A DNA stretch of 60,366 nucleotides, filler included. It is 3 parts of 3 records of this genome, joined end to end, with 100 filler letters (N's around TTAATTAATTAA, not from the genome) between each part and the next. Parts side by side here need not be neighbours in the genome. Positions count along the whole stretch, not along the records: positions 19,177 to 42,941 come from SRR22947725_218; 2 more parts are not named here. The stretch is one strand, 5' to 3'. The first letter of the stretch is position 1. Each line of letters opens with the position of its first letter. The notes under the pieces were generated by a model. It worked only from the letters and a program-made list of their open reading frames with translations. It had not been told where the DNA came from and searched no databases. Positions 28,441 through 60,036 of this stretch are shown here, piece by piece. A program made the translations under genes and the position numbers.

Positions 28441-28801
28441 ATTTTTATTCTTATTCTTTATCTCTTTCACTTTATTAGCTGAGTCTTACTATGATTTTCA
28501 GAATGATGAAGATGAAAAAAGATTCTTTAATTTAATAAAAGAAATAAGGTGTCCTAAATGTACAAGTGGGTCTTTAGCTAGCTCAAATGCTCCTGTATCT
28601 GAAGACTTAAAAAAAATAATTGCCGAGATGATTGAAGATAATAAATCTAATGAAGATATCAAGAGCTATATATCTGATAGATTTGGGAAAGAGACTCTAT
28701 ATGACACCCCCATAGAACCAAAGACTTATGCACTTTGGTATTCACCATTCGTATTTCTTCTTGCTTGCTTGATGATTTTCTTTTTTAGGAAAAAAGCCTA
28801 G
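28430..28801 (+). CDS. ccmH: Cytochrome c biogenesis protein CcmH (thiol-reductase domain)
   Basis: IRCPKC, SNAP...DL, RFG...LY.P, LW..P. Confidence 0.92.
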   Translation: MLNKFLFLFFISFTLLAESYYDFQNDEDEKRFFNLIKEIRCPKCTSGSLASSNAPVSEDLKKIIAEMIEDNKSNEDIKSYISDRFGKETLYDTPIEPKTYALWYSPFVFLLACLMIFFFRKKA

Positions 28802-29580
28802 TGTACATTTACTTTTTATTAACTATTTTTGCTTTTTTGCCTTTTGGAGCATATCTTCTTTCGCAAAAAACAAAAAATAAAGGCCTTGTTCTTGGTTTTT
28901 CTTTTTTTTATCTTCTGGCATGTTTATTAATTTACACGGGAAATTTTTACAGCTCAAACCCATATCAACTAAAAGAAGTAAATAAAAAAATAATTCAAAA
29001 AATATCTTCTGATGAGCCTATTGAGATTAACCTATACAATGAATTAACCGCATTTTCTGAAAAGAACCTTTCAAAAAATTGGATCCAACCTTATCTTTTA
29101 AATGCACTATCGCTAAAGAGCTTTAATTCAGCAGAAAGTCTCATATCTATTGCCGAAGATATTTACAGCGAGCCAAAAGAAAAGGTAATTTTCTATTCCA
29201 TGTATACACTATTAAGAGATACAAGATTTCCACTCTATTCTGAAGCGCGTTTGGATATAACATCAAGCCACCCCACCAACTGTAATCAAAATTCTTCTAT
29301 GGTAAGACTAGATATTGTAGATGGCCCAGGGGTGCCAATTGCAGAAAACTCTTTTTCAAATACCAGCGAATATTCTTTATCTAATAAAAACTCATTAATT
29401 CCAGGGTTTGATATTGCATCAGCGCTTCTAAATAATGAGTCTATAGAAATTTTTATTGAATTAAATTGCAAAGATAATAGCGAAATTTATCAATTTAATT
29501 CTATATTTATTTTTGATCCAAACTCACCATTAAATACTTATAAAATTAACTTAAATGATTGGTCTAAAAGGAAACAATAG
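28801..29580 (+). CDS. Divergent CcmI/CycH-like protein
   Basis: Two N-terminal TM segments; C-terminal GPGVPIA...LSNKNSLIPG resembles the CcmI GP.MPLA...L.D..AM.PG domain; last gene of ccm operon. Confidence 0.5.
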   Translation: MYIYFLLTIFAFLPFGAYLLSQKTKNKGLVLGFSFFYLLACLLIYTGNFYSSNPYQLKEVNKKIIQKISSDEPIEINLYNELTAFSEKNLSKNWIQPYLLNALSLKSFNSAESLISIAEDIYSEPKEKVIFYSMYTLLRDTRFPLYSEARLDITSSHPTNCNQNSSMVRLDIVDGPGVPIAENSFSNTSEYSLSNKNSLIPGFDIASALLNNESIEIFIELNCKDNSEIYQFNSIFIFDPNSPLNTYKINLNDWSKRKQ

Positions 29581-29613: not shown

Positions 29614-32601
29614 ATGCAGCTTAAACACATAAAACTAGCGGGTTTTAAGAGTTTCGTAGACCCAACCAAAATAGGGTTTCCTACGAATTTAGTTGGCGTT
29701 GTCGGTCCAAATGGTTGTGGAAAATCTAATGTAATTGATGCAGTCAGATGGGTCCTTGGAGAGCTATCTGCAAAGAATCTTCGTGGTGAATCCATGGTTG
29801 ATGTAATATTCAATGGCACAGACTCCAGAAAGCCATCAGGTCAGTGCAGTATTGAGCTTCTATTTGATAATTCTAGTGGAAAGATTGGAGGAGAGTATGC
29901 ATCTTTTAATGAGATATCAATCAAAAGAGTTATGACAAGAGACGCACAGTCTACTTACTTTATTAACAACACAAAATGTCGAAGAAAAGATGTTCAGGAT
30001 ATATTCCTAGGCACTGGGTTAGGTCCAAGCTCTTATGCGATTATCGAGCAGGGCATGGTTAGTAAATTAGTGAGTGCTAAGCCTGAAGAATTAAGAACTC
30101 ATATTGAAGAAGCAGCAGGAGTTTCCAAGTATAGAGAAAGAAGAAGAGAAACAGAATCAAGAATAAAGAAAACAAAAGAAAATTTATCTAGGGTTAATGA
30201 TATAAGAGATGAAATTGCAAGATTGATAAAAAGATTAGAAAATCAAGCAAATGCAGCAGAGAAATATAACTCTCTAAAAGAAGAAGAGTCTGTAAATAAA
30301 TTTGATACTGCTATTCTATTGTCACTTCAAGCTAAAGAAGGTAAAGACAAATTTCAAAAGCAGTTAGATGGCCATAAAAGAGACTTATTGATAAAAGAGG
30401 CTGAAGCTGAGACAAAACAATCTCAGATAGATGAGTTTAGAACACAGAATGAATCAGTTGTAACAGCTTATGAGAATGCTCAAAAGAACTTTTATTCAAT
30501 AGGAGCAGAGATAGCAAAACATGAAGCTAATTTAAAAAATATAAATAGAGATGAGATAAGCAATAGAACTAATTTAGAGAGAGCAATAAAAGGCTTTCAG
30601 GAAGCATCAAAAAAAGAAGCTGCATTCAAAGATCTTAGCCCAAGAGAAAAAGAGTTAAAGTTAAATATATCTATTATAAAAGCTCTTGAGGCTTCTAAAA
30701 ATATAGAGAGCATAACCCTCCAAATCAAACCTCTTCAAAATAATAGTGCAAATAAACTTAAAGAAGTGGAAGAGTTTCAAAATAAAATTAATACTATAAA
30801 TAATGATAATATCTCTCTACTGCAAAACCTAGAAAATTCACAAAAAGAATCTTATGAAATTAATGCAGTCATAAAGAGCTTAAAAGATAATATTGAAAGA
30901 AATTACTCTATAGAATCAAAAACAAAATCAAATTTAGATATAGCAAAGAATAATTATGCAGATGCTCTAGAAAAAGAGAAAAACCTAGACAATCTAAGTC
31001 CTAAAGAAAAGGCAATGCATGTCTTAGATAGCATCATAAACGCATTAAATGAACTCAATATCAGCAAAGGTGGCTTGAAAGATAAGGCTGCCGAATTAAA
31101 GGGCTTGTTAAAAGACATACTGCAAATAGCTTCAGCTCAATCAAAGTCCTTAACAGAACAGTTTTTAAAACGACAGGAAGAATTAGAGGTGCTCTTAAAA
31201 CATACACGCAGTGATATAAATAAGACAGAAAAAGAACTCACAGAACATGAGTCAAACAAAATAAAAATTGATTCTAATTTAGAAAAGTTAAAAATAAACA
31301 AGAGTGATTTCGACAATAAAATTAAAGATATAGAAGAAGCAAAGACAAAGGTATCATTTGAGCTTAGAGCTATAGATTCTGAAATTAATAAATATAAATT
31401 AGATTTAAGAACTTATGAAATTAACCTAGAAAATGCTTCAAGCGCATTATCTAGGGCTGATATAAGCATTTCTGATCTTAACGTGACTGAATACGAGGGA
31501 ATGGACTTAGACCTTCTTGAGAACTCGCTTAATGAAGTGCAAACAAATATTTCTAAACTAGGAAATCTTAACTTTGCTTCACCAGAAGAGTACAAGCAAA
31601 GACAATCTGAGCTTGAATCACTAATAAATTCTGCACAGCTTGAAAAAAATTCAATTGAGAGTCTAATGTCTGAGCTTGTCCAGAAAAGCTCTGAATCTGA
31701 ATCTGTTTTGCTAGATATTCGACAAAAACAGTCTCATTTTAATGAAAGCCTTAGAGAGCTTGAAGGTAAAAAACAACTTGCATTGGTTGATGTAAAAAAT
31801 ATTACAGAAAAGATAACTGATACTAGATTAGAGTTAAAAACCTATGAAATTAATTTAGATAATGCTAATGAACAAATAAATAAATCAGGTTTAAAAGTTA
31901 GCGATATTGATTATGAAAAGTATCGAGATATGGAAGTCTCTAAATTACAAGATAATTTGGCTTTGATACAATCAAAAATTATTAGACTAGGCGCGATTAA
32001 TTTAGCTGCTCCAGATGAAATTTCTGCTGAAGTAAAAAGAAAAGAAGAGCTTGATATACAGTATGAAGATCTAACAAGCGCTTTAGATAAGCTGTCTTCA
32101 GCAATCAAAACTATTGATAACGAGACAAAATCAATGTTTAAAAATAGCTTTGATGCAGTAAACACAAGAATAAAAGAAGTTTTCCCAAAATTATTTGGAG
32201 GCGGTTTCGCTGAGCTTACCTTAACTGATGACGATCCTTTAAATGCAGGAGTTGTTTTAATGGCAAGACCACCAGGAAAAAAGAATTCCTCAATTTCTCA
32301 GTTATCAGGAGGAGAAAAAGCTTTAACAGCACTTTCTTTGGTTTTCTCTATCTTTGAGCTTAATCCTGCACCATTTTGTATGCTAGATGAAGTAGATGCA
32401 CCACTCGATGACCTAAACACATTGAGATTTATTAATATGGTAGAAGAGATGTCAAAAGATGTTCAGTTCATATTCATTACGCACAACAAGGTCTCAATGG
32501 AAAAAAGTGACTATCTCATGGGCGTAACCATGCAAGAACCAGGGGTGTCTAGACTTGTTTCAGTCGATATGAGCCAAGCACTTGAGTTTGTTGAGTCTTA
32601 G
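29614..32601 (+). CDS. smc: Chromosome segregation ATPase Smc; hinge-less, with internal arm duplications
   Basis: GFKSF, GPNGCGKSN, LRG..M.DVIF, IIEQG, EEAAG; C-head LSGGEK, LDEVDAPLD, ITH; upstream of zipA-ligA. Confidence 0.95.
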   Translation: MQLKHIKLAGFKSFVDPTKIGFPTNLVGVVGPNGCGKSNVIDAVRWVLGELSAKNLRGESMVDVIFNGTDSRKPSGQCSIELLFDNSSGKIGGEYASFNEISIKRVMTRDAQSTYFINNTKCRRKDVQDIFLGTGLGPSSYAIIEQGMVSKLVSAKPEELRTHIEEAAGVSKYRERRRETESRIKKTKENLSRVNDIRDEIARLIKRLENQANAAEKYNSLKEEESVNKFDTAILLSLQAKEGKDKFQKQLDGHKRDLLIKEAEAETKQSQIDEFRTQNESVVTAYENAQKNFYSIGAEIAKHEANLKNINRDEISNRTNLERAIKGFQEASKKEAAFKDLSPREKELKLNISIIKALEASKNIESITLQIKPLQNNSANKLKEVEEFQNKINTINNDNISLLQNLENSQKESYEINAVIKSLKDNIERNYSIESKTKSNLDIAKNNYADALEKEKNLDNLSPKEKAMHVLDSIINALNELNISKGGLKDKAAELKGLLKDILQIASAQSKSLTEQFLKRQEELEVLLKHTRSDINKTEKELTEHESNKIKIDSNLEKLKINKSDFDNKIKDIEEAKTKVSFELRAIDSEINKYKLDLRTYEINLENASSALSRADISISDLNVTEYEGMDLDLLENSLNEVQTNISKLGNLNFASPEEYKQRQSELESLINSAQLEKNSIESLMSELVQKSSESESVLLDIRQKQSHFNESLRELEGKKQLALVDVKNITEKITDTRLELKTYEINLDNANEQINKSGLKVSDIDYEKYRDMEVSKLQDNLALIQSKIIRLGAINLAAPDEISAEVKRKEELDIQYEDLTSALDKLSSAIKTIDNETKSMFKNSFDAVNTRIKEVFPKLFGGGFAELTLTDDDPLNAGVVLMARPPGKKNSSISQLSGGEKALTALSLVFSIFELNPAPFCMLDEVDAPLDDLNTLRFINMVEEMSKDVQFIFITHNKVSMEKSDYLMGVTMQEPGVSRLVSVDMSQALEFVES
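30292..31011 (+). repeat. Diverged tandem duplication (about 360 nt / 120 aa) in the Smc N-terminal coiled strand
   Basis: ENAQK/ENSQK (aa 287/407) and LSPREK/LSPKEK (aa 341/461; nt 30634/30994); outer boundaries approximate. Confidence 0.85.
31162..32019 (+). repeat. Diverged tandem duplication (about 429 nt / 143 aa) in the Smc C-terminal coiled strand
   Basis: KRQEELE/QRQSELE (aa 519/662), TYEINL (aa 600/743; nt 31411/31840), LGNLNFASP/LGAINLAAP (aa 649/792). Confidence 0.9.
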
Positions 32602-32602
32602 A

Positions 32603-35988
<3,386 letters not shown>

Positions 35989-43929: not shown

Positions 43930-44098
43930 GATTTTATCCAGATTTCTTCCAAACGGATTTTAAGCTAATATCTACAATTCTTAAAGATACGCAAAAAATG
44001 ACAGAATAGTGACTAGTCTAGGCAAAAAACATGCTATTTATCATGGATTTTGCTTAAATACTTGATAGAGAGTTGTAGAACGATATTTATTTGATGTG

Positions 44099-44992
44099 TT
44101 ACTTTTTGAGTTTCTCGTTAAAAAACTTTAAAATAACGGCATTTGCTTCAGGAGTAAGGAACTCTTTACCGCCGTGTTTTGCGCCTTTGATGATATGTAA
44201 TTGGCTCGAAGCTCCGACTTCCTTTAATTTTTTATGCAGTTTCAAGCTTTGCTCAAGGGGAACCCCTGGGTCTAAGTCTCCATGCATGATCAAAAAAGGC
44301 GGGTCATTTTTTGAAACATTCCAATAGGCAGAAGCTTCTTTGGCAAGTTCAGGAACATCTCTAACAGTTTTGCCGAGAAGTTTAGCGCCATTACTTTGTG
44401 AGACTTGCTCGAGTGTTCTTTTTTCACTGACAACGTTTGGAGGCATAGTGAGTAAATCGCTAGGGCCGTACCAGTCAAGAACTGCTTGGACTTGGCTTGA
44501 TATTTCTTCACTTTTTGGCAAATCCTGGGTACCAAGAACAGCCACTAAATGACCTCCAGCAGAACCACCCCAAGCGGCAATTTTTGTGCCGTCAAGTCCG
44601 TACTTCGCGGCATTTTTTCTGAGAAAGCGCACGGCTGCTCGGCAATCGTTAATTTGTGCTGGCCATTGGTGAGGAATAAGGCGGTAATTGATAGAGGCAA
44701 TAGCGAAGCCATGTTCTACAAGCCATAAGCCTTTATGCTTTTCTTTACTGCCATTTTTCCAGCCGCCACCATGAACCCACATGACGACTGGCGCTTTACC
44801 CTTGTACTCTTTAGGTAGGTAGAGGTCTAAGTGCAGAGCTTGACCATCGTTAACGGTGTATTCTATATCCTTCATTACTTGAATATATTCGGGAATCTTC
44901 TTCCCTTTTTTCTTTTTATTTTGCTGGGCATTTACATTGAAAGCGACAACGAAACTGATGAAAAATGAAATGATATAAACCGCTTTATTCAT
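44099..44992 (-). CDS. Secreted alpha/beta hydrolase (esterase/lipase-like)
   Basis: Signal peptide; HGGGW, GGSAGGHL, HGDLD..VP, terminal His. Confidence 0.9.
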   Translation of the reverse strand: MNKAVYIISFFISFVVAFNVNAQQNKKKKGKKIPEYIQVMKDIEYTVNDGQALHLDLYLPKEYKGKAPVVMWVHGGGWKNGSKEKHKGLWLVEHGFAIASINYRLIPHQWPAQINDCRAAVRFLRKNAAKYGLDGTKIAAWGGSAGGHLVAVLGTQDLPKSEEISSQVQAVLDWYGPSDLLTMPPNVVSEKRTLEQVSQSNGAKLLGKTVRDVPELAKEASAYWNVSKNDPPFLIMHGDLDPGVPLEQSLKLHKKLKEVGASSQLHIIKGAKHGGKEFLTPEANAVILKFFNEKLKK

Positions 44993-45029
44993 GTATAATC
45001 CTTTTTAAAATTTTTGCTTGTATATAAAC

Positions 45030-45056
45030 ATACGTGCTCAATGAGAATAAATGACA
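45030..45056 (-). promoter_or_regulatory. Putative alternative (ECF-like) sigma promoter TGTCA-N17-CGTAT
   Basis: Bipartite motif; variants recur upstream of neighbouring minus-strand genes (43987-44014, 46610-46636, 48593-48620). Confidence 0.45.
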
Positions 45057-45087
45057 TGACAAAGAATTTTACTAGTGGTTGCCTTTG

Positions 45088-46581
45088 TTACTTGCCTTCT
45101 TTCATCCACTTGAGGTATAGCTCGGAATTTCGCCGGTAATTTTCACGGGAGTTTTTATTGTGTATGGATTTCATCTGGTCTTCTGTTTCTGAAATATAGA
45201 CTTCAATGCTTTCCGGTCCGGGGTCACCTGTTTGCTTTATCCAGGTATCGAGTTGAGCCCGGTGCTTTTTGAGTATGGTCGCGTATTCGGGATCGTTGGC
45301 GAGATTCTTAATTTGCCAAGGGTCACCCCCATAGAGGTAGAGCTCCTCTTGTGGGCGAGTTGGGGCGAAGAGTATTTTTTCTGTAAGTTCGCTGACTTTG
45401 CCTTCTTTATGAAGCTGACGAAGACGTTTGATGATGAGTTTACTGTCTTTGTAGTTACTCGGCATGAGAAATGGTCTTTCAGGGTAGAAATTCTTAATGT
45501 AGAGGAACTTTTCTGTGCGCACAGAGCGAATGCGGTCAGCAGCATCACCACAACGATCACGGGCTGCAAAAACAGCTTCTTTCTGGGAGTAGTTGGGTGC
45601 TAGTATATCTTGGCCTTCCATTTTTTGAGGGATGTTGATGCCGGCAGCAGCAAGAGAGAGGGCCGCGATATCGATAGACTCGACGAGATCGTGACGCCTT
45701 TGATTTTGAGGAATGCCTGGCCCGCTGATAATCAGTGGTATATGAGTGCCTTCATCATAGAGAAACTGCTTGCCACGAGCGTGACTTATACCATGGTCTG
45801 TAAAGAATATGATGAGCGTATTTTCAAGTAGCTTTTCTTTTTTTAGCCTAGCGAGTACCCGACCGACATGATGATCGGTAATTTTTACGGAATCGAGATA
45901 AGTCGCCCAGTCTTGAAGTATGATGGGGTCTTGAGGATAGTAGAGTGGGAGCTGAATCTTCGCTGGATCGGTCTTTTGTTTAAATTCTTTGAGCATGCGC
46001 TTTTCGGTTATTTCATAGTGTTTGGCACTGGCTCCGCGAATTTTGCCCCCGTGTAACTGGACTTGCATGAAGAAAGGTTGCTCTTTGTTACGACCGGCCC
46101 AATCATGGCTATTGTAGATCGATTTATCCCAGTTGAAATTATAGTCGGATTTCCCAAGGCGGTCAGATTTCGTGGGGCTGCCGGTATGGTTAATACCGGG
46201 TAAACCACTGCCCATGCAGGTCCAATAACCGGCTTCTTGAAAAAGTTTTGGAATGGGGTGAACCCCTTGGGGAAGTTCAATGCGGTGTTCTCCACGACCA
46301 CTGCGGTGATGGTGTGCACCTATGGAGTTTTGATACATGCCAGTAATTAAAGAGGAGCGAAATGTTGAGCAAACAGGCGAAGTTGCATAAGCCCTTTTGA
46401 AAAGAAGCCCCTTTTGGGCGAGGCTATCAACATGTGGTGTTGTAATGACGTTTTCTCCGTAACAGGAGAAGTTTGCCGACATATCGTCGACAACAAACCA
46501 GAGGATGTTGGGTTTCTCTTGAGCTTGTATAAGGGTGCCAGAGAGTAAGCTGAAAAGCAAAGCGAGTGTAATAGTTTTCAT
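45088..46581 (-). CDS. Formylglycine-dependent (S1) sulfatase
   Basis: Signal peptide; KPNILW.VVDD, PVCSTFRSSLITG, TDHG, RGKQFLY, DPWQ.KNLA. Confidence 0.92.
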   Translation of the reverse strand: MKTITLALLFSLLSGTLIQAQEKPNILWFVVDDMSANFSCYGENVITTPHVDSLAQKGLLFKRAYATSPVCSTFRSSLITGMYQNSIGAHHHRSGRGEHRIELPQGVHPIPKLFQEAGYWTCMGSGLPGINHTGSPTKSDRLGKSDYNFNWDKSIYNSHDWAGRNKEQPFFMQVQLHGGKIRGASAKHYEITEKRMLKEFKQKTDPAKIQLPLYYPQDPIILQDWATYLDSVKITDHHVGRVLARLKKEKLLENTLIIFFTDHGISHARGKQFLYDEGTHIPLIISGPGIPQNQRRHDLVESIDIAALSLAAAGINIPQKMEGQDILAPNYSQKEAVFAARDRCGDAADRIRSVRTEKFLYIKNFYPERPFLMPSNYKDSKLIIKRLRQLHKEGKVSELTEKILFAPTRPQEELYLYGGDPWQIKNLANDPEYATILKKHRAQLDTWIKQTGDPGPESIEVYISETEDQMKSIHNKNSRENYRRNSELYLKWMKEGK

Positions 46582-46651
46582 AGAAGGCCTTTTTTATCTT
46601 TGTGTAGTGATAGGCAAAACCTTTTGAAATCTTACAGCTCGCTTGATAAAA

Positions 46652-48496
46652 TTATTTTCCTTCGATCAGGTATTCCACGCGGTGCTTAACGAGGCCGCCA
46701 AGTTTTGACCACTTTGCTTTCTTGACCATGGCCGGAGTTATCTTCATTCCGGTGGCGTCCTTGAGAAGAACGACGCTGTTTAAAATAAGGTTGGCCTCAA
46801 TAGGGTCAGTACAATCATCCAAGATGTCCATGACTAAAGGCAAAGGATCGGCGGCGCCCGTTAAGCCGAGGAATTCGGCGGCTCGAGTGCGAACGAGGCG
46901 ATTGGGGTCTGACTTGGCTAATTTTTTAGCCTTTTCATAAAAAGAACTCGATTTTTTACCAAAACTACTACAAACGATTAAACCCCAATAGCGCTCCATT
47001 GGGTCTTCGGCATTTAGAGCCGTACTGATCTGAGCTTTGGCTTCCGGGTAGGGGGCTAATTGTAGATCGGCGATAGCGGCTAATTTAGCAATTTGGTCTT
47101 GGTTTTTTTCGAGGAGTTCGACAACATTCCCGTTGCATGGAGTGAGTGCTGTCTCAGGTAAGAAACTGACGTCAGGCAATTCTCTGACAGTATTTTTCAT
47201 TTGGCGGCGCATATCGGCGAGTATTTGTGAATAGGCCGGGTCTTTGGCGAGATTATTGACTTCATGAGGGTCTTTTTCTATATCAAACAATTGCTCGGGG
47301 TCGCGGGCTTTAAAGAAAGCAGATTGGGTCGCGTTGAGCTTTCCTGATTGGGCCAGGTCACGCCATTCGCGAAAGGCCGCTTGCTTATAGCGATAGAAGT
47401 TGTGGAGGCCATCGAAATTAAAAGGCTGGTAGTTGCGCCAGTAAGTATATTTCCCTTTGCGAAGAAAGCGTACTTGATCATACTTTTCATCGAAGCGGTC
47501 GGCATAACCTAAGGCGCTATCGCGAGAGTTCAGCTCTTTCAAAGTGACGCCTTGACCAAGAAATGGTTTGCCATCGATTTGTTGGGGGATATCTATGCCA
47601 GCGAGATTAAGAACTGTTGCCGAAAGATCCACAAACTGTACAAAGCCATCTATGCGAGAGCCGCGTTTGGCCGGAACGAGGTGCTGCCAGTTTTTAGGAA
47701 CGTAAACGACCATGGCGACTTGTAGACCGTCGTTGTGGGCGTAGCCCTTGCCACCAGGAAGAACGCCACCGTGATCGCCATAGTGAAAAATAAAAGTATC
47801 CTCCATAAGGCCGTCATCTTCTAGTTGCTTGATGATGCGGCCCATTTCAGCGTCGACTATATGATTGCGGGTAATGTACTCCGCATATTTTTGGCGCATA
47901 AGAGGGGTGTCTGGATGATAAGGGAAGAGTTGGACATCTTCCGGTTTTACAATGAGTTCTTTACCTTTGGGGAGGTCCTTAAAGAGTTGACCTTCATGGG
48001 TGGTACCGTGATTTTGAACGTGAAAGAAAGGTTGCCCTGGTTTTCTTTTGCGAAAAGTTGCTTTTCTTGAGCTTTCATCCCAGATGCCATCGACGTGTTC
48101 TTTGACGTAATTGTAGTCTTGCTTGCTATTATTAGTTGTGTAGTAACCGGCTTCGCGCAGGTAGGCTGGAAAAAGTTTTAAGCCTTTAGGTGGCTGAACT
48201 TTGACTTGGGGACGGTGAAAGTGAGCACCGGTTCTTGGACCGTAGATTCCGGAAATAATAGTACTACGGGCAGCAGAACAGACGGGGGCATTTGAATAAG
48301 CATTATTGAAAACCAAACCATTTTTAGCCAGCTTTTCGATATTGGGCATGGGGGCACCAAATTCTGGATTGTAGAGTCGGTACCAGCAGGCAGAGTTATC
48401 TTCAGTCGTGATCCATACTATGTTGGGGCGCTTTTGTTCCGCAACGGTTGTTGAAATGATTAAAAAATAGATGAGAATTGAAGTCCATCTTGACAT
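46652..48496 (-). CDS. S1 sulfatase with C-terminal HEAT-like extension
   Basis: RPNIVWI..ED, PVCSAARSTIISG, GDHG, DPHEVNNLA; helical tail with VRTRAAEFL. Confidence 0.92.
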   Translation of the reverse strand: MSRWTSILIYFLIISTTVAEQKRPNIVWITTEDNSACWYRLYNPEFGAPMPNIEKLAKNGLVFNNAYSNAPVCSAARSTIISGIYGPRTGAHFHRPQVKVQPPKGLKLFPAYLREAGYYTTNNSKQDYNYVKEHVDGIWDESSRKATFRKRKPGQPFFHVQNHGTTHEGQLFKDLPKGKELIVKPEDVQLFPYHPDTPLMRQKYAEYITRNHIVDAEMGRIIKQLEDDGLMEDTFIFHYGDHGGVLPGGKGYAHNDGLQVAMVVYVPKNWQHLVPAKRGSRIDGFVQFVDLSATVLNLAGIDIPQQIDGKPFLGQGVTLKELNSRDSALGYADRFDEKYDQVRFLRKGKYTYWRNYQPFNFDGLHNFYRYKQAAFREWRDLAQSGKLNATQSAFFKARDPEQLFDIEKDPHEVNNLAKDPAYSQILADMRRQMKNTVRELPDVSFLPETALTPCNGNVVELLEKNQDQIAKLAAIADLQLAPYPEAKAQISTALNAEDPMERYWGLIVCSSFGKKSSSFYEKAKKLAKSDPNRLVRTRAAEFLGLTGAADPLPLVMDILDDCTDPIEANLILNSVVLLKDATGMKITPAMVKKAKWSKLGGLVKHRVEYLIEGK

Positions 48497-48702
48497 GATT
48501 GGGGTCCTGTATTTTCATTAAATATGATGATGTCTAGATTCTAAATAATATCAGTAGACTATTCATTAGTGAGTTAATTATATATTGTATTTATACGACA
48601 GTAGATGACATAAGAGGACAATTTTTTGTTGGCTCACTGAATTATTGCAGGGCTTCCCTCTAGACTTGGTGCATTTTAATGTGTATAAAAGTCGTATTAA
48701 TA

Positions 48703-49089
48703 ATGAGTTGCGAGCGCGTTTTGAAAATTTTGATTGTTGACGATCACGATGCAAATTTAAAAGTTCTTAGTGTGATTCTTAAGAAGTCTTTTAAGGATTT
48801 GCATGTGGATTGTGCCGAGAATGGCCGTCAAGCAGTCGATTTAACTCTTGAAGAAAAATACGACTTAATCCTGATGGATATTAATATGCCCGTGATGGAT
48901 GGTTGTGAAGCAACGGGGAAAATTCGTCAGCAATATCCAGAGCAAAATATAATTGCCATGACAGCAGTGAGTAAACAACGCTTAGCAGAAATAGAAGACA
49001 TGAAGTTGTTTGAACTCATTATCCCTAAGCCTTTCAACCCCGCGAACTTAATCGAAACATTAAAAAATTACTTACCCCAAGACTCTTAG
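48703..49089 (+). CDS. Single-domain response regulator (CheY-like)
   Basis: ILIVDD, ILMDINMPVMDG, AMTA, KPF; start uncertain (48679 or 48703). Confidence 0.9.
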   Translation: MSCERVLKILIVDDHDANLKVLSVILKKSFKDLHVDCAENGRQAVDLTLEEKYDLILMDINMPVMDGCEATGKIRQQYPEQNIIAMTAVSKQRLAEIEDMKLFELIIPKPFNPANLIETLKNYLPQDS

Positions 49090-49106
49090 TCAGACCTGTG
49101 GATTTT

Positions 49107-49568
49107 TTAATACTGAAATGGCCAGGGATTTTTGAGTAGTTTTGAGTTGAAGTAGCGGTAATCAAAGGTGACTTCTTCAGTGATCCAATCTGGAATCGGT
49201 GGTTGAGCATCTTCGCTTTCCATTTCGACTTCAGCCACAATAAGGCCTTTGTTTTGCCCTTCAAAGACGTCTACTTCCCAATCGTAGCCTTCATAAGGAA
49301 TGACATAGCGCGTTTTGACAATGCGTTGTATGCCGCAGAATTCATCGAGCATGGCGAGGGCATCTTCCATGGGGATTTTATACTCAAACTCAGTACGGGA
49401 TATGCCTTTGGTCTTACCTTTGACGGTGAGCCAGGCTTTTTTGTTACCGGTGCGTATTCTGACAGTTGAGCTACTTTTGGCAATGTACCCCTGTTGGATT
49501 TCCATGCCTTTGTATCCTTTCCAGGGCTCCCCTTTGACGAGGAATTTTCGCTCAATTTCTTTTGACAT
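49107..49568 (-). CDS. CYTH-domain protein
   Basis: EIERKFLV, QGY, VRIR, R.EFEY.IP, K.RY, WEVDVF, AEVE. Confidence 0.93.
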   Translation of the reverse strand: MSKEIERKFLVKGEPWKGYKGMEIQQGYIAKSSSTVRIRTGNKKAWLTVKGKTKGISRTEFEYKIPMEDALAMLDEFCGIQRIVKTRYVIPYEGYDWEVDVFEGQNKGLIVAEVEMESEDAQPPIPDWITEEVTFDYRYFNSKLLKNPWPFQY

Positions 49569-49769
49569 CTAGTAACTCCAGTAGCTTTTTTTGAATATTT
49601 AAAAATACATCTAAAAAGAGGGACATCAATTGAGCTTATTAAAATATCTTAATGATGGGGGACAATGGCAGATGATTAGGCTTTTATTTTTTGGTCTTTC
49701 CAGTTGCATTTCACGCATTTTACTAGAGTTTAGGGGCATATAAATTATTGATTAGAAAAGGTTTTGAAT

Positions 49770-50870
49770 ATGGCTGGATTATCCTGTGGAATTGTTGGTT
49801 TGCCGAATGTAGGTAAGTCGACTTTATTTAATGCAATTACTAAAGCGGGTGCTGAAGCGGCAAATTACCCTTTTTGTACTATTGACCCCAATGTTGGTGT
49901 TGTTACTGTTCCTGATGTACGAGTGGAGCGCTTGGTCGAATTGGTACAGCCTAAAAATACTCAGTACGCGACGATTGAGTTTGTTGATATCGCCGGTTTG
50001 GTTCGCGGAGCGTCTAAAGGGGAAGGCCGCGGTAATCAGTTTTTAGATAATATTCATCATGTGGATGCGATTGTGCATGTTGTCCGCTGCTTTCAAAATG
50101 ATAATGTTGTCCACGTTGACGGTAAGGTTGATCCAGTTGCAGATATCGATACCATTAATTTGGAGTTAATTCTGGCCGATTTGGATCGTTGCGATAAGAC
50201 AATTGAACGCTTGTCTAAGAAAGCGAAAGGCAATGACGCAACTGCTAAGAAGCAAATGGAAGTCATGAAGAAGATGGCGGCTCACTTAGAAGAAAATTTA
50301 AGTTTGCGTGTTCTTGATTTGACTGATGACGAAAAAGAATCGGTAGAAGAGTACAAATTTTTGACCGATAAGCCGATAATTTATGTGGCGAATGTCGGAG
50401 AAGATGATCTTCCTGCGATGGAGAATGACATGGTTCAAAAAGTCCGGGATTTCGCCGCGACAGAAAATGCCGAAGTTGTTCCTGTTTGTGCTGCTATCGA
50501 GGAAGAAATCGCTCAGTTAGATGCCGAAGAATCAAAAGAGTTTTTAGAGTCTTTAGGCCTAGATGAGTCTGGCTTAGATCGCTTAATTAAGAAGAGTTAT
50601 TCGACTCTTGGTTTAATTACTTACCTTACTGCGGGTGAAGTTGAAGTGAGAGCTTGGACCATTCGCGAAGGTTGGACGGCGCCGCAGGCAGCGAGTGTGA
50701 TTCACTCAGATTTTGAAAAATTATTCATTCGCGCAGAAGTTAAGAATTTTGCAGATTTTGATCGCCTTGGTTCAGAAAAGGCCGTTAAAGAGGCGGGTTT
50801 GATGCGCGTTGAAGGTAAAGAATATATCGTTAAAGATGGCGATATAATGTTATTCCTCAACGGAAAATAA
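49770..50870 (+). CDS. ychF: Redox-regulated ATPase YchF
   Basis: GIVGLPNVGKSTLFNA, NYPFCTIDPN, DIAGLV, EVRAWTI, EGKEYIVKDGD. Confidence 0.97.
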   Translation: MAGLSCGIVGLPNVGKSTLFNAITKAGAEAANYPFCTIDPNVGVVTVPDVRVERLVELVQPKNTQYATIEFVDIAGLVRGASKGEGRGNQFLDNIHHVDAIVHVVRCFQNDNVVHVDGKVDPVADIDTINLELILADLDRCDKTIERLSKKAKGNDATAKKQMEVMKKMAAHLEENLSLRVLDLTDDEKESVEEYKFLTDKPIIYVANVGEDDLPAMENDMVQKVRDFAATENAEVVPVCAAIEEEIAQLDAEESKEFLESLGLDESGLDRLIKKSYSTLGLITYLTAGEVEVRAWTIREGWTAPQAASVIHSDFEKLFIRAEVKNFADFDRLGSEKAVKEAGLMRVEGKEYIVKDGDIMLFLNGK

Positions 50871-50873
50871 TTC

Positions 50874-52673
50874 ATGGCTTCTCGCCAGGATAGAATGAGT
50901 AATTATCAGCAGGTTATTGAAAGCTTGCGCCAAGAAGGTGACGCCTTTAAAGCGGGTGAAGGTAAATTTACGGCTTTGCGCGTTGTAACTTTCGGGGCGG
51001 CTTGTTTAACCCTGGCTTATGCTGTTCTTGCTGGTGGGATAAGTCCTTGGTGGACGGTCATTCCCGGCGTGATGTTTGTTTTTGTGGTGATGTTACACGA
51101 AAATCAGTTGCGTACGACGGCTAGAAATCAGAAAAAGATCGATTTTTACGAGCGTGGTTGCCGGCGGATAGCGGGTGACTGGCATGAAGATGGTTTACAA
51201 GGAACAGACTTTGCCGATAAAGACCATTTATTTTCTGGCGATTTAAATCTTTTTGGCAAGGCTTCTCTTTTTCAAAAGCTTTGTCTTTGTACAACGGCCT
51301 TTGGTCGTCAACGCTTGGCAGATTGGCTTAAGAATCCTGCCGATAAAGATATTATTGCCGTTCGGCAAGAGGCCTTAAAGGAGCTTGCCGAGGACCGTTC
51401 GCTTATTGCTTCTTTCGCCGAATTAGATAGCGAAGAAACGGCTCATTTGGAGATCAGTGTTTTAAAATCCTGGTCGGCAGAAGGAACAGACCTTTATCAT
51501 CCCCTAGCTTATTTTATGTCTTTATTTATGGGCATGTTATCGGTTGTTACTTTAATCGCGTGGATTCCTTTTCAGCAGAGTGCGTGGCCGTTTTTCATCT
51601 GTTTAGCGATAGATTTATTGATTGGTAATATTTATGTCGGTCGAATTGCCAAGGTAACGGAAGGAATTTCCTCTAAAGAGAAAAATTTAAAGAAGTTATC
51701 TCAAGTATTAAAAGTTCTTGAAGCAGGCTCATATGAAAGTGCTTTGATGAAAAGAATTACATCTGAAATTCGCACTGATAATGTAAAGGCTTCGGAGCGC
51801 ATAAAGCAAATTGCTTACTTAATCGATACTTTTGAAAATACTCGTTCTAATCTGGCCATTCAGCCTTTTAATTTATTGTTGCATATAAACTTGCGTAATG
51901 CCATGAAAATTGAACGCTGGCGGCAGATGGCAGGGGCTAGTATTCCGCAATGGGTTGAGGCCGCAGCCGATTTTGAAGCTTTAGTTTCTTTAGGTGTTTT
52001 TGCACATGAGAATCCAGACTATGATTATCCCACTTTTGTAGAGAATGGACCTTTTTTAAAGGCAGCTTCTTTAGGACACCCGTTATTGAAAGCGGAGAAT
52101 TGTGTACGCAATGATGTCAATTTAGGGGAGCCGACACAGTTGTTGCTAATCAGTGGATCCAATATGGCGGGTAAATCGACTTTTTTAAGAACTGTCGGGG
52201 TGAATATTGTTCTTGCTCAGGCGGGGGCTCCAGTCAATGCTTCAGGTATGAGCTTGTCTTCTTTATCCTTAGGCTGTTCTATTCAGATCGAGGACTCGTT
52301 GTCGGAGGGAATTTCTCATTTCTATGCAGAGATCCTGCGTTTGAAAAAGCTAGTTGATTTAGCGCAAGAAAAAAATGATAATGTGCTGTTTTTCTTTGAT
52401 GAAATTTTACACGGCACTAACTCAAGTGATCGCTGCAATGGGGCATCTGCGGTAATTCGCAGTTTGGTTGAAGGAGGAGCTGCCGGTTTTGTAACGACTC
52501 ATGACTTATCATTGACGGCGATAGCCGATGATTTGGGCGACAAAGCGCGGAATGTTCATTTTGAAGATCAATTTGCCGACGGTAAGATGACTTTTGATTA
52601 TAAGATGAAAGAAGGCGTTGTGACGCACGGCAATGCTTTGCAATTGATGCGTTCGTTGGGTTTAGAAGTTTAA
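50874..52673 (+). CDS. Membrane-anchored MutS-like ATPase (no mismatch-binding domain)
   Basis: Two hydrophobic helix pairs; SGSNMAGKST, SHFYAEI, FDEILHGTN, TTHD. Confidence 0.88.
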   Translation: MASRQDRMSNYQQVIESLRQEGDAFKAGEGKFTALRVVTFGAACLTLAYAVLAGGISPWWTVIPGVMFVFVVMLHENQLRTTARNQKKIDFYERGCRRIAGDWHEDGLQGTDFADKDHLFSGDLNLFGKASLFQKLCLCTTAFGRQRLADWLKNPADKDIIAVRQEALKELAEDRSLIASFAELDSEETAHLEISVLKSWSAEGTDLYHPLAYFMSLFMGMLSVVTLIAWIPFQQSAWPFFICLAIDLLIGNIYVGRIAKVTEGISSKEKNLKKLSQVLKVLEAGSYESALMKRITSEIRTDNVKASERIKQIAYLIDTFENTRSNLAIQPFNLLLHINLRNAMKIERWRQMAGASIPQWVEAAADFEALVSLGVFAHENPDYDYPTFVENGPFLKAASLGHPLLKAENCVRNDVNLGEPTQLLLISGSNMAGKSTFLRTVGVNIVLAQAGAPVNASGMSLSSLSLGCSIQIEDSLSEGISHFYAEILRLKKLVDLAQEKNDNVLFFFDEILHGTNSSDRCNGASAVIRSLVEGGAAGFVTTHDLSLTAIADDLGDKARNVHFEDQFADGKMTFDYKMKEGVVTHGNALQLMRSLGLEV

Positions 52674-52681
52674 GGCGGTTA

Positions 52682-54634
52682 ATGAATCCTGAAAAGAAAT
52701 CTTTTTTTGAATCACCTGAGTGGCAGGCATTTATTAAGCCTTTTAAACAAATCTTTGGTGCCTTTCGCTCTAAGGATAATGCCGCCGCAGAATCTCCCCA
52801 AGACCTACCGAAGGCAGCTACGCCCCGGTCATTACCAAGCGCTAAAGTTACCCCCAAAAAAGTGAAGCCTGCCCAGCAGCAGGAAGCCGATATTGAAAAT
52901 GAGCTGGTCAAGCCTAAAGAACCTGAACCGAGTAAAGAGGAACTTTTAAAGCTTCAGAAAGAACAAGAAGAGAAGCGTCAAGAGTTTCTACTTAGCAAAT
53001 TTGAACAGCGTAAAGCTGAACGCGAAAAGCGGCGTCAAGAATTGGGCGAACTCCCTGAGACCGTCATCGATGAAGAGCGAGTATCTTTAGCAGAGAAACA
53101 GGATTTCCCGCAGTACAGCTTAGAAGATTTTATGAATTCAGAAGAAGAGGATGAAGCAGCCCCTGTTCGAGAATTTAATTTGCCGGCTGGCGGCTTACAG
53201 TTACCGCGTTTGGAGATGTTAGATGAGGTTCCAGAGAAGCGCGAAAGAGACCAGGAAGAGATAAAGCGCAAAGAAGATTTAGTCCAGGATACCCTCGATA
53301 GTTTTAGGATTGATGCGACGGTGATGGGCTCTGTACAGGGGCCGCGCATAACGCGCATAGAAATCCGTCCGGCACAAGGCGTAAATGTTGATGCTATTGC
53401 GAATCTTAATAAGAATATTGCGATGGAGTTGGAAGCTGCCAGTTTGCGGGTGTTGGCGCCTATTCCAGGTCGTCCTTTTGTGGGCATAGAAGTTCCGAAC
53501 GATCATCCGGAGAAGGTGGCACTACGGGAACTTTTGGCTAGCCCCGATTGGCGGCATGATGATCACTCGATTCCTCTTGCTCTCGGTAAGAACACTTCGG
53601 GTGAAATTCGCGTTTTGGATTTAGCAAAAGCACCTCATTTGTTAATTGCAGGTGCTACTGGTGCCGGTAAGTCTGTCTGTATTAATACAATTGTTATGTC
53701 GATGGTTTTCCGTTTATCACCTGAAGAATTGCAACTCATTTTAGTGGATCCTAAAGTGGTTGAACTGACGGCTTACCAGAAGATGCCTCACTTGATTGCA
53801 CCAGTCATTACCGATACTAAGAAAGTCCCCTCGATGTTAAAGTGGGTGGTGGCTGAAATGAAGCGCCGTTATAAGATACTGGCGGCAGTTGGAGCTAGAA
53901 ATATTGCCGGCTTTAATAGTCGACCAGTGTCGACAGACAAAGCTTATACGGAAGATGGCGATGAGATCCCTCAGAAGTTTCCTTTTATGGTCATTATTAT
54001 CGATGAACTTGCCGATATTATGATGACAGCAGGAGCAGATGTAGAGATGGCTCTGGCGCAGATTGCACAGTTATCGCGGGCAGTTGGAATTCATACAATT
54101 ATTGCGACTCAAAGGCCGAGTGTAAATGTTATAACCGGTATAATTAAAGCCAATTATCCCACGAGAATTGCTTTTCAGGTTTCATCGCATGTTGATTCAA
54201 GAACGATTCTCGACGGCAAGGGTGCGGAGCAGTTACTTGGGCGCGGTGATATGCTTTATTCTCCCCCGGGGGCGTCGGTTATTGAGCGCTTGCAAGGAGC
54301 CATGCTAGAAGATGCCGAAATAGATAAGTGTGTCGATTTCTTGTCAGAACAGATGGATACTTGCTTTGAACCTTCTTTGGAGAGAATACTGACAGGTAAT
54401 TTTGATGACGAGCCGAATTCTGGAGCCGCGGCTTCAGTCAGTGGCGAAGATGGTGATTTATTAAAAGAAGCAATGGAGATCATTGCTCGAGACCGCAAGG
54501 CATCAACTTCTTATTTGCAGCGTCGCTTGCGCATTGGTTATAACCGAGCGGCGACCTTAGTTGAGCAACTTGAGGAGATGGGCGTTATTGGCCCACAGGT
54601 TGGCTCTGCACCGCGCGAAATATTTATTGATTAG
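52682..54634 (+). CDS. ftsK: FtsK/SpoIIIE DNA translocase without N-terminal TM domain
   Basis: PHLLIAGATGAGKS, VDPK, IIIDELAD, ATQRPS, GAEQLLGRGDML, gamma domain LQRRLRIGYNRAA; charged N-terminus. Confidence 0.92.
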   Translation: MNPEKKSFFESPEWQAFIKPFKQIFGAFRSKDNAAAESPQDLPKAATPRSLPSAKVTPKKVKPAQQQEADIENELVKPKEPEPSKEELLKLQKEQEEKRQEFLLSKFEQRKAEREKRRQELGELPETVIDEERVSLAEKQDFPQYSLEDFMNSEEEDEAAPVREFNLPAGGLQLPRLEMLDEVPEKRERDQEEIKRKEDLVQDTLDSFRIDATVMGSVQGPRITRIEIRPAQGVNVDAIANLNKNIAMELEAASLRVLAPIPGRPFVGIEVPNDHPEKVALRELLASPDWRHDDHSIPLALGKNTSGEIRVLDLAKAPHLLIAGATGAGKSVCINTIVMSMVFRLSPEELQLILVDPKVVELTAYQKMPHLIAPVITDTKKVPSMLKWVVAEMKRRYKILAAVGARNIAGFNSRPVSTDKAYTEDGDEIPQKFPFMVIIIDELADIMMTAGADVEMALAQIAQLSRAVGIHTIIATQRPSVNVITGIIKANYPTRIAFQVSSHVDSRTILDGKGAEQLLGRGDMLYSPPGASVIERLQGAMLEDAEIDKCVDFLSEQMDTCFEPSLERILTGNFDDEPNSGAAASVSGEDGDLLKEAMEIIARDRKASTSYLQRRLRIGYNRAATLVEQLEEMGVIGPQVGSAPREIFID

Positions 54635-55151
54635 ATTCTTTTTTCGGACGTTTGTCGAGTATAGCTTGCTTATCAACGGCATCGATAGAGATGTCATCGC
54701 CGGCGCCATTTGAATTGACTTTATCAGCCCCAGTTGACCATATGGTAAATTCTTTGCCATTAGTGGTGTAGAGATAAGGTAATCTCCAAGGGTCTAAAGG
54801 GGTCATGGGGTCGGCATTTGGAGCGGCATAGTTGTCATGAGAAGTGGTGATAGCAACGCCTTTGTAGTCGATGAACATGTCGCGCGGTTCAGTATTTTCT
54901 TTTGAGGGCATGATTTTAGAAAATTGTTCACCAAAATTTAAGACGTAATCTTTCTGTTGGGCGGGGTAATGGCCGTGATGGTGTTTGTATTGTTCTACAG
55001 CAGATTTTATAGCTTTAAGGTCGATAAGAACTTTGTAGTTTTCACGGGCAGAAGACATGCGCAGTGAATTTTTAAGGATGACTAAGGTGGCGAGTCCTAG
55101 GGCGAGTCCTAAACCGATGGTGACAGGCCAGTTTGTCTTTTTTGGATTCAT
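54624..55151 (-). CDS. GspG/pseudopilin-domain protein
   Basis: N-terminal TM; DL.AIK.A...Y....G.YP, DPW..PY.Y, WS.G.D....GDDI. Confidence 0.7.
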   Translation of the reverse strand: MNPKKTNWPVTIGLGLALGLATLVILKNSLRMSSARENYKVLIDLKAIKSAVEQYKHHHGHYPAQQKDYVLNFGEQFSKIMPSKENTEPRDMFIDYKGVAITTSHDNYAAPNADPMTPLDPWRLPYLYTTNGKEFTIWSTGADKVNSNGAGDDISIDAVDKQAILDKRPKKESNQ

Positions 55152-56594: not shown

Positions 56595-56659
56595 GGGTTT
56601 TTTAGGGGAATATAGACAGTTTCATCGGAGGTGAAAGAAGGAACGTTGATTTTCTTGAC

Positions 56660-57688: not shown

Positions 57689-57823
57689 AATAGAGAATCT
57701 ATGCCACTGAAATGAGTTGCTGTCAATAGCGGGCCTTTGATAACTACGGCTTAACATTTTATTTGTGAATACTGCCATTAGAGTAGATTTTATAAATAAA
57801 TTGAGTTTTAGGAGAAGTGATTT

Positions 57824-60035: not shown

Positions 60036-60036
60036 T

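What the first reader, a model, noticed from the sequence alone, without database searches (positions are those of the whole stretch)
30292..32019. Smc arms lengthened by matched nested duplications on both antiparallel strands
Seen: architecture is headN-N1-N2-apex-C2-C1-headC. The N strand repeats with a 120-aa period (ENAQK/ENSQK, LSPREK/LSPKEK) and the C strand with a 143-aa period (RQ.ELE, TYEINL.NA, LG.(L/I)N.A.P). The head-proximal 'LG.VN..A' joint-region motif therefore occurs twice. Established: N and C strands pair antiparallel, and Smc function depends on arm length. Inference: an ancestor of about 730 aa (995 minus 263) regained arm length by duplicating a whole two-stranded module, giving two joint-like elements; the 23-aa surplus on the C side would be the non-coiled loop. 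One simple tandem duplication cannot give this nested order, and the copies are too diverged to be an assembly artefact.
Basis: partly seen in the sequence, partly recalled or inferred. Interest (0 to 1): 0.85.

Follow-up and report, generated by a model that had tools for sequence, protein, structure and literature searches.

The report
Hingeless Smc with duplicated arm module
A marine bacterium's chromosome-organising Smc protein has no hinge domain, and its coiled-coil arm was lengthened by a matched extra segment in each of its two strands, so close relatives carry one of two discrete arm lengths.

Summary
The 995-aa Smc (29614..32601) has two 120-aa units on the N strand and two 143-aa units on the C strand, in mirror order. 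They score far above shuffles and above real Smc coiled-coil background.

Among 118 family genomes with a match I count 74 short frames, 38 long and 6 partial, and none intermediate. Extracted proteins are 727-733 or 995/996 aa, and the alignment gaps are exactly 120 and 143 aa.

The head-proximal units are orthologous to the single units of short forms. The distal units form one clade each, which indicates a single origin.

AlphaFold secondary structure places the C-side 23-aa surplus in a loop and a break that copy the Smc joint.

ScpA and ScpB are present.

Long and short forms are interleaved within genera. How the module arose and spread remains unresolved.

The parts
29614..32601 (+). 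smc gene: 995-aa hingeless Smc (stop codon included)
   Evidence: TIGR02168 scores 834.8 bits against a cut-off of 567. Pfam finds SMC_N only, with no SMC_hinge.
29614..30123 (+). N-terminal head half (residues 1-170), with Walker A GPNGCGKS
   Evidence: Residues 2-223 align to the B. subtilis Smc head.
30124..30291 (+). Head-proximal N helix before the repeats (residues 171-226)
   Evidence: AF2 helix H171-331.
30292..30651 (+). Na, head-proximal N-strand unit (residues 227-346). It ends in the LSPREK break.
   Evidence: Orthologous to the single N unit of short forms. Helix break at 332-343.
30652..31011 (+). Nb, distal (added) N-strand unit (residues 347-466). It ends in LSPKEK.
   Evidence: 28% identical to Na. 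All Nb form one clade, support 97/90. It evolves fast.
31012..31152 (+). Apex cap in place of a hinge (residues 467-513): a short helix, a 7-residue turn at 481-487, then the start of the C helix. It contains no Cys.
   Evidence: The hinge HMM is not found. The apex groups by genus rather than by length class.
31153..31581 (+). Ca, distal (added) C-strand unit (residues 514-656), with TYEINLENA, a loop at 615-631, a short helix at 632-651 and LGNLNFAS
   Evidence: All Ca form one clade, support 98/98.
31582..32010 (+). Cb, head-proximal C-strand unit (residues 657-799), with TYEINLDNA, a loop at 758-774, a helix at 775-791 and LGAINLAA. This is the native Smc joint.
   Evidence: Orthologous to the single C unit of short forms. 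LGAINLAAP aligns to B. subtilis LGTVNLGS.
32011..32598 (+). C-terminal head half (residues 800-995), with signature LSGGEK and Walker B LDEVDAPLD
   Evidence: Residues 783-994 align to 5xg3 residues 223-435.

Best explanation
This is the orthologue of bacterial Smc, the ATPase of the Smc-ScpAB condensin, in an order of small, AT-rich marine Gammaproteobacteria. In this order Smc has lost the hinge domain, and the N and C arm strands are joined by a short helical cap.

In this protein the antiparallel arm consists of two modules laid end to end. Module 1 (Na 227-346 with Cb 657-799) is the original one. It is shared with the 727-733-aa Smc of sister genera and contains the native head-proximal joint. 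Module 2 (Nb 347-466 with Ca 514-656) is a diverged copy of module 1 placed between module 1 and the cap.

Because the two strands run antiparallel, the copies lie in mirror order in the gene. This needs two in-frame tandem duplications, of 360 nt and 429 nt, or one complex event that made both.

The addition gives each strand about 110-120 helical residues, roughly 17 nm. This takes the arm from about 185 to about 315 residues per strand, near the canonical length of about 340. The extra 23 residues on the C side are the loop and break of a second, joint-like interruption. In the model this interruption faces the LSPREK break of the N strand, so the long form has a mid-arm discontinuity that the short form lacks.

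Shown here: the repeats, the two length classes, the orthology of the proximal units, the single origin of the distal units, the absence of a hinge, and the presence of ScpA and ScpB in relatives.

Inferred: the Nb/Ca pairing, the direction short to long, selection for discrete arm lengths, and the idea that the mid-arm break acts as a flexible joint.
For: Repeats:
- The stated periods are exact, with z 11.6 and 16.2 against shuffles. The two diagonals score 162 and 229 against a third best of 61.
- They are specific to long forms. Six canonical Smc reach at most 123 and seven short or mid forms at most 67.

Length classes:
- Extracted proteins are 995/996 aa (10 complete) and 727-733 aa (12) in the family. 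The other families give 732-736, 809-810 and 821-827 aa.
- The alignment shows gaps of exactly 120 and 143 aa.
- Of 118 family genomes with a match, my tally is 38 long, 74 short and 6 partial frames, with none intermediate.
- Five further long forms in genus g9 are also exactly 995 aa, with the motifs at the same positions.
- Long and short forms sit at the same locus.

Orthology and origin:
- Na and Cb group with the short-form units genus by genus. Nb is one clade (97/90) and Ca is one clade (98/98). The inner topology of Ca, g9 | (g6,(g1,g5)), mirrors the RpoB tree.
- AU tests reject lineage-specific duplications: p 0.004 for all g9 C units as one clade and p 0.0002 for g1+g5. These groups were named after the tree had been seen.

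Structure:
- AF2 secondary structure shows the same element order in both C units (long helix, loop with a mini-helix, 17-20-residue helix, break) and an LSP break ending each N unit.
- Model residues 353-608 superpose on a solved Smc arm segment, 5xg2 (237 aligned, rmsd 4.6, Z 13.9).
- The short model's best match is 5xei, an Smc head with coiled coil and joint (E 4.8e-23).
- LGAINLAAP aligns to the B. subtilis joint region.

Hinge and partners:
- PF06470 is not in the protein. It is not found in 0 of 151 genomes of the order, against 78 of 101 in the class sample.
- The region between Nb and Ca is only 47 residues.
- ScpA and ScpB are found in 5 of 5 genomes tested.

Constraint:
- Interiors of Nb and Ca are 20-26% identical between genera, while the Na|Nb junction is 75% identical.

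Literature:
Against: Distribution:
- The distribution is patchy. On a single-marker RpoB tree (quick method) the long/short label needs 5-6 changes. Long and short forms are interleaved inside g9 and g6.
- A simple 'one gain, then vertical descent' account therefore fails. Repeated loss, allele exchange or long-lived polymorphism must be added.

Origin:
- Nb and Ca attach near the base of the family tree, not beside any living Na or Cb. The event is thus old, or the donor was a diverged allele, or long-branch effects mislead.
- No single-strand intermediate (about 852 or 875 aa) was seen, so the path through two duplications is undocumented.

Structure:
- AF2 confidence is middling (pLDDT 72 and 71; pTM 0.34 and 0.38) and no coordinates were available. 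Strand pairing is inferred from element lengths and from one structural alignment, whose Z is near the level common for long helices.

Arm-length step:
- The added 110-120 helical residues do not equal the 91-99-aa period reported for B. subtilis.

Other:
- The window's own assembly is not held, so ScpA and ScpB were shown only in relatives.
Confidence: 0.85

Rival explanations
1. The long form is the older state within the family. Many or all short forms of the family are secondary, made by loss of one N and one C unit or by replacement with a short allele. The window would then show retention, not recent lengthening.
For: The Nb and Ca clades branch near the family root, and their inner topology mirrors the RpoB tree. 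Long forms occur in both major branches of the family: g9 on one side and g6, g1, g5 on the other. G173, a short form in g9, carries an N-unit tail like the Na tail of g9 long forms. The other short forms carry an Nb-like tail. This fits a different in-phase deletion.
Against: The sister family f4 has 732-736-aa proteins with no internal repeat. Today's copies share no DNA homology that could drive precise deletion. About nine precise double losses would be needed on the RpoB tree. A duplication is still required at the origin.
Confidence: 0.25
2. The extra module was not copied from the gene's own arm. It came from a diverged smc allele: a fragment carrying N unit, cap and C unit recombined into the cap of a resident allele (hairpin-in-hairpin insertion). 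This would give matched strands in one event.
For: Nb and Ca never nest with the Na or Cb of their own genus. In g9 long forms the Na tail resembles the G173 allele type, while the Nb tail resembles the other g9 short type. smc allele types within g9 disagree with RpoB, so alleles do move. A single event explains the lack of single-strand intermediates.
Against: The cap between Nb and Ca groups by genus, not with the other long forms: g6 long and short together, support 93/88. No remnant of a second cap is present at the unit junctions. Faster evolution of the distal module could by itself pull Nb and Ca to the base of the tree.
Confidence: 0.15
3. The apparent repeats are coiled-coil heptad background or an assembly artefact.
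For: Coiled coils do give off-diagonal signal. Canonical Smc reach gapless scores of 79-123.
Against: Scores of 162-396 occur only at offsets 120 and 143, and only in long forms. 0 of 500 shuffles reach the observed scores. The copies are 24-51% identical in protein and not repeated in DNA. 115 of the best 120 database relatives are 995 aa. Contigs from other runs span the units without indels.
Confidence: 0.01

Closest known systems
Bacterial Smc of Smc-ScpAB (NCBIfam TIGR02168, SMC_prok_B), for example B. subtilis Smc
   Same: Heads with Walker A, signature and Walker B motifs. A long intramolecular antiparallel coiled coil. A head-proximal joint carrying the LG.(V/I)N motif. ScpA and ScpB in the genomes. 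Gene order smc, zipA, ligA.
   Different: There is no hinge domain; a cap of about 47 residues joins the strands. The arm is built from one module (short form) or two modules (this protein). Total length is 727-996 aa, against about 1154-1265 aa elsewhere in the class.
Engineered B. subtilis Mini-Smc and Smc(Zh) hinge-replacement chimeras (Burmann et al. 2017, PMC5344682)
   Same: Smc with resized arms and with the hinge replaced can work. Only discrete arm lengths are tolerated, in steps of about 100 aa. The natural long and short classes without intermediates look like the same rule.
   Different: Those constructs are laboratory-made and keep a dimerising hinge or zinc hook. Here the variants are natural, the step is 120/143 aa including a copied joint, and the cap has no Cys, so it cannot be a zinc hook.
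RecN and Rad50/SbcC, SMC-like ATPases without an Smc hinge (architectures recalled, not tested here)
   Same: ABC-type head, antiparallel coiled coil, and a small apex instead of a globular hinge.
   Different: The heads here score as Smc proper (834.8 bits; Rad50 models reach at most 55 bits, far under their cut-offs). The kleisin partners are ScpA and ScpB. There is no CxxC hook.

Membership tests
Smc (Smc-ScpAB condensin ATPase) | Whole-protein match to the curated equivalog model above its cut-off | tested here: met
   TIGR02168 scores 834.8 bits against a cut-off of 567.35.
Smc (Smc-ScpAB condensin ATPase) | Split ABC head: N-terminal Walker A, C-terminal signature LSGG and Walker B | tested here: met
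   GPNGCGKS, LSGGEK and LDEVDAPLD are read. PF02463 matches at E 3.6e-55. Residues 2-223 and 783-994 align to the B. subtilis Smc head 5xg3.
Smc (Smc-ScpAB condensin ATPase) | Long antiparallel intramolecular coiled-coil arm with a head-proximal joint | tested here: met
   Near-continuous helices from 171 to 861, with breaks. The short model's best match is 5xei, head plus coiled coil plus joint. Residues 353-608 superpose on arm segment 5xg2. The models have middling confidence.
Smc (Smc-ScpAB condensin ATPase) | Central globular hinge dimerisation domain (PF06470) | tested here: not met
   No hit at E<=1 in this protein or in four short or mid relatives. 0 of 151 genomes of the order have a hit, against 78 of 101 in the class. 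Only 47 residues lie between Nb and Ca, and they are helical with a 7-residue turn. The HMM also misses some full-length Smc of the class, so the lack of room is the stronger argument.
Smc (Smc-ScpAB condensin ATPase) | Kleisin ScpA and kite ScpB encoded in the genome | tested here: met
   PF02616 and PF04079 are above their cut-offs in 5 of 5 genomes, including the nearest relative G001. The window's own assembly is not held.
Rad50/SbcC | CxxC zinc hook at the coiled-coil apex | tested here: not met
   Residues 467-513 contain no Cys. Rad50 models score at most 55 bits, against cut-offs of 700 or more.

The most novel reading that the evidence does not exclude
Two claims together. First, a whole order of abundant marine bacteria runs Smc-ScpAB without any hinge, so the hinge is dispensable in nature. 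Second, arm length there is quantised. A one-module and a two-module allele, with nothing in between, have coexisted and been exchanged within genera since near the root of the family. This would be a natural dimorphism maintained by selection. The two-module form would carry a second joint that acts as a mid-arm elbow.
Probability: 0.3. Interest if true: 0.9.

Novelty: new variant of a known kind. Interest (0 to 1): 0.8.

Why it matters
Two open questions in the SMC field are what the hinge is for and why arm length is so tightly conserved. So far they have been approached mainly with engineered B. subtilis proteins.

This lineage offers a natural version of those experiments. The hinge is gone from the whole order, the partners ScpA and ScpB are kept, and close relatives carry arms of one module or two with no intermediates.

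The pair of orthologues, 732 and 995 aa, makes several things directly testable:
- whether a hingeless Smc dimerises, entraps DNA and extrudes loops;
- whether arm length must change by a whole two-stranded module;
- what a second joint does.

It also documents a way for antiparallel coiled coils to grow, by matched duplications in mirror order. I did not find this described in three literature searches on hingeless Smc or in one on arm duplication.

Tried and rejected
- **Own genome search** failed because the assembly is not held. Relatives around G001 were used.
- **Complex prediction** with two copies of residues 425-575 (cap plus stem) gave no verdict (score 0.00), and the alignment was not used by the tool. 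It says nothing for or against cap-mediated dimerisation.
- **Cross-correlation of conservation profiles** of the N strand and the reversed C strand gave broad, weak peaks (r 0.5-0.6) at pairing sums that disagree with the element-length estimate. I do not use it.
- **The 'skips 375' joint in RNA-library contigs X14 and X15** has sides of only 27-31 nt. It belongs to another organism's contig, whose loose end reads like a g9 N-unit start. It is not a deletion variant of this gene.
- **Contiguous transfer of Nb, cap and Ca between genera** was considered and set aside for g6, because the cap groups by genus.
- **Independent duplications per lineage** were rejected by the Nb and Ca clades and by AU tests.
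- **Literature searches** for a natural hingeless Smc or for arm duplication found nothing relevant. Supplements were not opened.
Full report
**The gene and its neighbours**

The finding lies inside one ORF, 29614..32601 on the + strand, encoding 995 aa. NCBIfam scores it as Smc: TIGR02168 gives 834.8 bits against a cut-off of 567. Pfam finds only the SMC_N head domain and generic P-loop families, with no SMC_hinge.

The neighbours are ccmF, ccmG/dsbE and ccmH-like genes, then a 259-aa ORF with no family, upstream of smc. Downstream are a weak ZipA match and LigA. The same order (ccmH, 259-aa ORF, smc, zipA) is found around both long and short orthologues in relatives.

**The observation**

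- The two N halves align without gaps, score 127 (z 11.6). The two C halves score 204 (z 16.2). In both cases 0 of 500 composition shuffles reach the observed score.
- A scan of every gapless diagonal gives 229 at offset 143 and 162 at offset 120. The third best is 61 and the 99th percentile is 48.
- Shuffles do not keep heptad structure, so I ran the same scan on real arms. Six canonical Smc from other orders of the class top out at 79-123, each with several near-equal diagonals. Seven short or mid-length Smc of this order top out at 44-67. Six long forms give 173-396 at offset 143 and 162-314 at offset 120. The signal is therefore specific, not coiled-coil background.
- At DNA level only one 43-nt stretch (84% identity, spacing 429 nt) is repeated in register with the units.
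- Contigs of independent public runs cross the units without indels.
- 115 of the 120 best relatives in the large protein collection are exactly 995 aa. The other five are 775-954 aa. An assembly artefact is excluded.

**The predicted length classes**

The window's own assembly is not held; the nearest genome, G001, carries a 99% identical protein.

From 38 relatives I extracted the Smc genes:

| Group | Number | Length (aa) |
|---|---|---|
| Family f1, long | 10 complete, plus one fragment cut at a contig end | 995/996 |
| Family f1, short | 12 | 727-733 |
| Family f4 | 5 | 732-736 |
| Family f3 | 5 | 809-810 |
| Family f2 | 6 | 821-827 |

In the alignment the short forms differ from the long ones by two clean gaps of exactly 120 and 143 aa, and 995 - 263 = 732.

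A survey of 139 genomes of the family found a match in 118. By my tally of the open frames:

- 38 are long (996-1010 aa frames). This covers 6 in g1, plus a fragment that one search shows to be long; all 24 in g5; 3 in g6; and 5 in g9.
- 74 are short (729-749 aa frames). This covers all 33 in g4, 9 in g7, 9 in g8, 3 in g10, 1 each in g2 and g3, 2 in g6 and 16 in g9.
- 6 are partial frames of 152-876 aa.
- No complete frame lies between the classes.
- No genome showed both forms.

The five g9 long forms are also exactly 995 aa, with the motifs at the same positions.

**Which copy is which**

Units are defined in window residues as Na 227-346, Nb 347-466, cap 467-513, Ca 514-656 and Cb 657-799.

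Maximum-likelihood trees place Na and Cb with the single units of short forms, genus by genus. For example, g6 long and short group together with support 99/96 for N. All Nb form one clade (97/90) and all Ca form one clade (98/98). Inside the Ca clade the order is g9 | (g6,(g1,g5)), which is also the order in an RpoB tree.

AU tests reject trees in which all C units of g9 (p 0.004) or of g1+g5 (p 0.0002) are held together. Separate duplications in each lineage are therefore not supported. These groups were named after the tree had been seen.

The distal module is the added one and arose once.

Identity between the two copies varies by genus:

| Genus | Identity between the copies |
|---|---|
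| g1 | 24-32% |
| g5 | 30-34% |
| g6 | 32-43% |
| g9 | 40-51% |

The distal module evolves faster. Within g1 (window against G005), Na is 82% identical and Nb 44%; Cb is 71% and Ca 54%. Between genera the interiors of Nb and Ca are 20-26% identical, whereas the Na|Nb junction (LSP.EK-ELKLNI) is 75% identical.

**Structure**

AlphaFold2 models of the long form (pLDDT 72, pTM 0.34) and of a 732-aa short form (pLDDT 71, pTM 0.38) are of middling confidence. Only secondary structure and confidence values were returned, not coordinates.

- In the short form the N strand is one helix (171-333), then a break at LSP, an 18-residue helix, a 5-residue turn and a long C helix. This is followed by a 17-residue loop containing a mini-helix, a 17-residue helix, the LGAINLAAP break, and the helix that enters the head.
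- The long form repeats this pattern. Each N unit ends in an LSP break (332-343 and 460-463). Each C unit ends in loop, short helix and LG.(L/I)N.A.P break (615-656 and 758-798).
- The short model's best Foldseek match is 5xei, an Smc head with coiled coil and joint (E 4.8e-23).
- Residues 353-608 of the long model superpose on 5xg2, a solved Smc arm segment (237 of 237 residues aligned, rmsd 4.6, Z 13.9). This supports Nb pairing with Ca around the turn at 481-487. The tool warns that such Z values are not rare for long helices.
- LGAINLAAP aligns with LGTVNLGS of B. subtilis Smc. By my arithmetic from the native numbering, this falls in residues 922-1011. Diebold-Durand et al. describe that stretch as the C-terminal part of the 'Smc joint': a continuous N helix contacted by helix-loop repeats, which tilts the arm by about 11 degrees and orients the heads (PMC5526789, passages seen).

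The long form therefore carries a second copy of the joint's C-strand elements in mid-arm. In the model this copy lies at the level of the N-strand LSPREK break. That it acts as a flexible elbow is my inference.

**No hinge**

The segment between Nb and Ca is 47 residues, helical with a 7-residue turn, and has no Cys.

- The hinge model PF06470 gives no hit at E<=1 in this protein or in short and mid relatives.
- It gives none at E<=0.1 anywhere in five genomes.
- It gives none at E<=0.01 in 151 genomes of the order. This sample includes 55 of high quality and spans 21 genera in four families.
- In a sample of the class it is found in 78 of 101 genomes. The two members of this order in that sample are among those without it.
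- The HMM is not perfectly sensitive. For example, G060, G062 and G070 have Smc frames of about 1156-1230 aa but no hinge hit. The decisive point here is the lack of room for a hinge.
- Elsewhere in the class, Smc frames not cut at a contig end are about 1154-1265 aa (one of 1441).
- One genome of these class samples, G080, is marked unpublished. It contributes one count to the tallies, and no claim depends on it.
- ScpA and ScpB are found above their cut-offs in 5 of 5 genomes tested, one or two per family.

The order thus keeps a complete Smc-ScpAB set with a hingeless Smc of 727-827 aa, and part of one family has re-extended the arm.

**Relation to known work**

Burmann et al. found that prokaryotic Smc arm lengths are multimodal, with modes at 238, 341 and 515 aa and minor ones at 163 and 423 aa. 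B. subtilis Smc works with short or long but not intermediate arms, with a period of 91 aa, close to the roughly 99-aa superhelical period. A chimera with a Rad50 zinc hook in place of the hinge is functional (PMC5344682; sections 8 and 9 and passages read).

By my rough count the arms here are about 185 residues per strand in the short form, 226-235 in the mid forms and 315 in the long form. These values are near but not on the modes at 163, 238 and 341. The added 110-120 helical residues are of the same order as the reported period but not equal to it.

Three full-text searches for a natural hingeless Smc and one for arm duplication found nothing on this. Supplements were not opened and could hold length tables that include such sequences.

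**What remains open**

On the RpoB tree (single marker, quick method) the long/short label needs 5-6 changes. G150 (long) is sister to G015 (short) in g9. In g6 two short genomes branch around a long pair.

The shared parts of smc in g9 fall into two allele types that do not follow RpoB. The five long forms plus the short G173 make one type, and the other short forms make the second. The cap groups by genus, not by class.

Nb and Ca attach near the base of the family tree.

These facts fit an old single origin, followed by exchange or sorting of long and short alleles within genera. Repeated reversion, or an origin from a diverged allele, are not excluded.

No single-strand intermediate was seen. 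Whether the two duplications were one event or two is unknown.

How a hingeless Smc dimerises is also unknown.

Noticed in passing
window 44001-60366: G+C rises from about 0.30 to 0.40-0.47 for the last 16 kb. Genes there include a sulfatase-like protein, a 599-aa MutS-related protein and an FtsK-like translocase. This could be an island or a join of unlike DNA. The nearest held genome shares only 30% of the window's sampled words.
   Followed up: no
window 28801-29580: A 259-aa ORF with predicted membrane helices and no NCBIfam family lies between ccmH and smc. It is conserved in that position in relatives at 29-98% identity. It may be a CcmI-like subunit; that is my guess.
   Followed up: partly
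window 32582-33250: The ZipA-like ORF overlaps the end of smc by 20 nt. It matches the ZipA model only in its C-terminal 80 residues, at 33 bits against a cut-off of 120.
   Followed up: no
window 33253-35406: LigA is 717 aa. It matches the 652-position TIGR00575 model in two stretches (9-418 to profile positions 1-405). This suggests an insertion of some tens of residues after the adenylation and OB part.
   Followed up: no
L024-L034 (families f2 and f3): Smc of two sister families is 809-827 aa, about 80-95 residues longer than the short form, mostly around the cap. No internal repeat and no hinge hit were found. This is a third natural arm length in the order.
   Followed up: partly
Cap region of short forms (L017, L018, L019, L021, L022, L023): Genera g3, g7, g8 and g10 have a cap 4-5 residues shorter (42-43 against 47 aa) than g1, g2, g4, g5, g6 and g9. 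This split does not follow the RpoB tree. It is another hint of mosaic history inside smc.
   Followed up: no
window 30239-30269 and 30645-30671 (runs X14, X15): A contig of about 1 kb from another organism matches the stretch just before Na and then the start of Nb, with 15 other letters between. This gives a net skip of 360 nt, which is 120 aa. Its loose end reads like the N-unit start of a g9 relative. The start of Nb has thus kept a sequence close to that of g9 N units.
   Followed up: partly
G031 (family f4), ScpA locus: The ScpA match covers only profile positions 1-91 in a 160-aa frame, unlike the full-length matches in the other four genomes. That genome has 8000 withheld bases.
   Followed up: no
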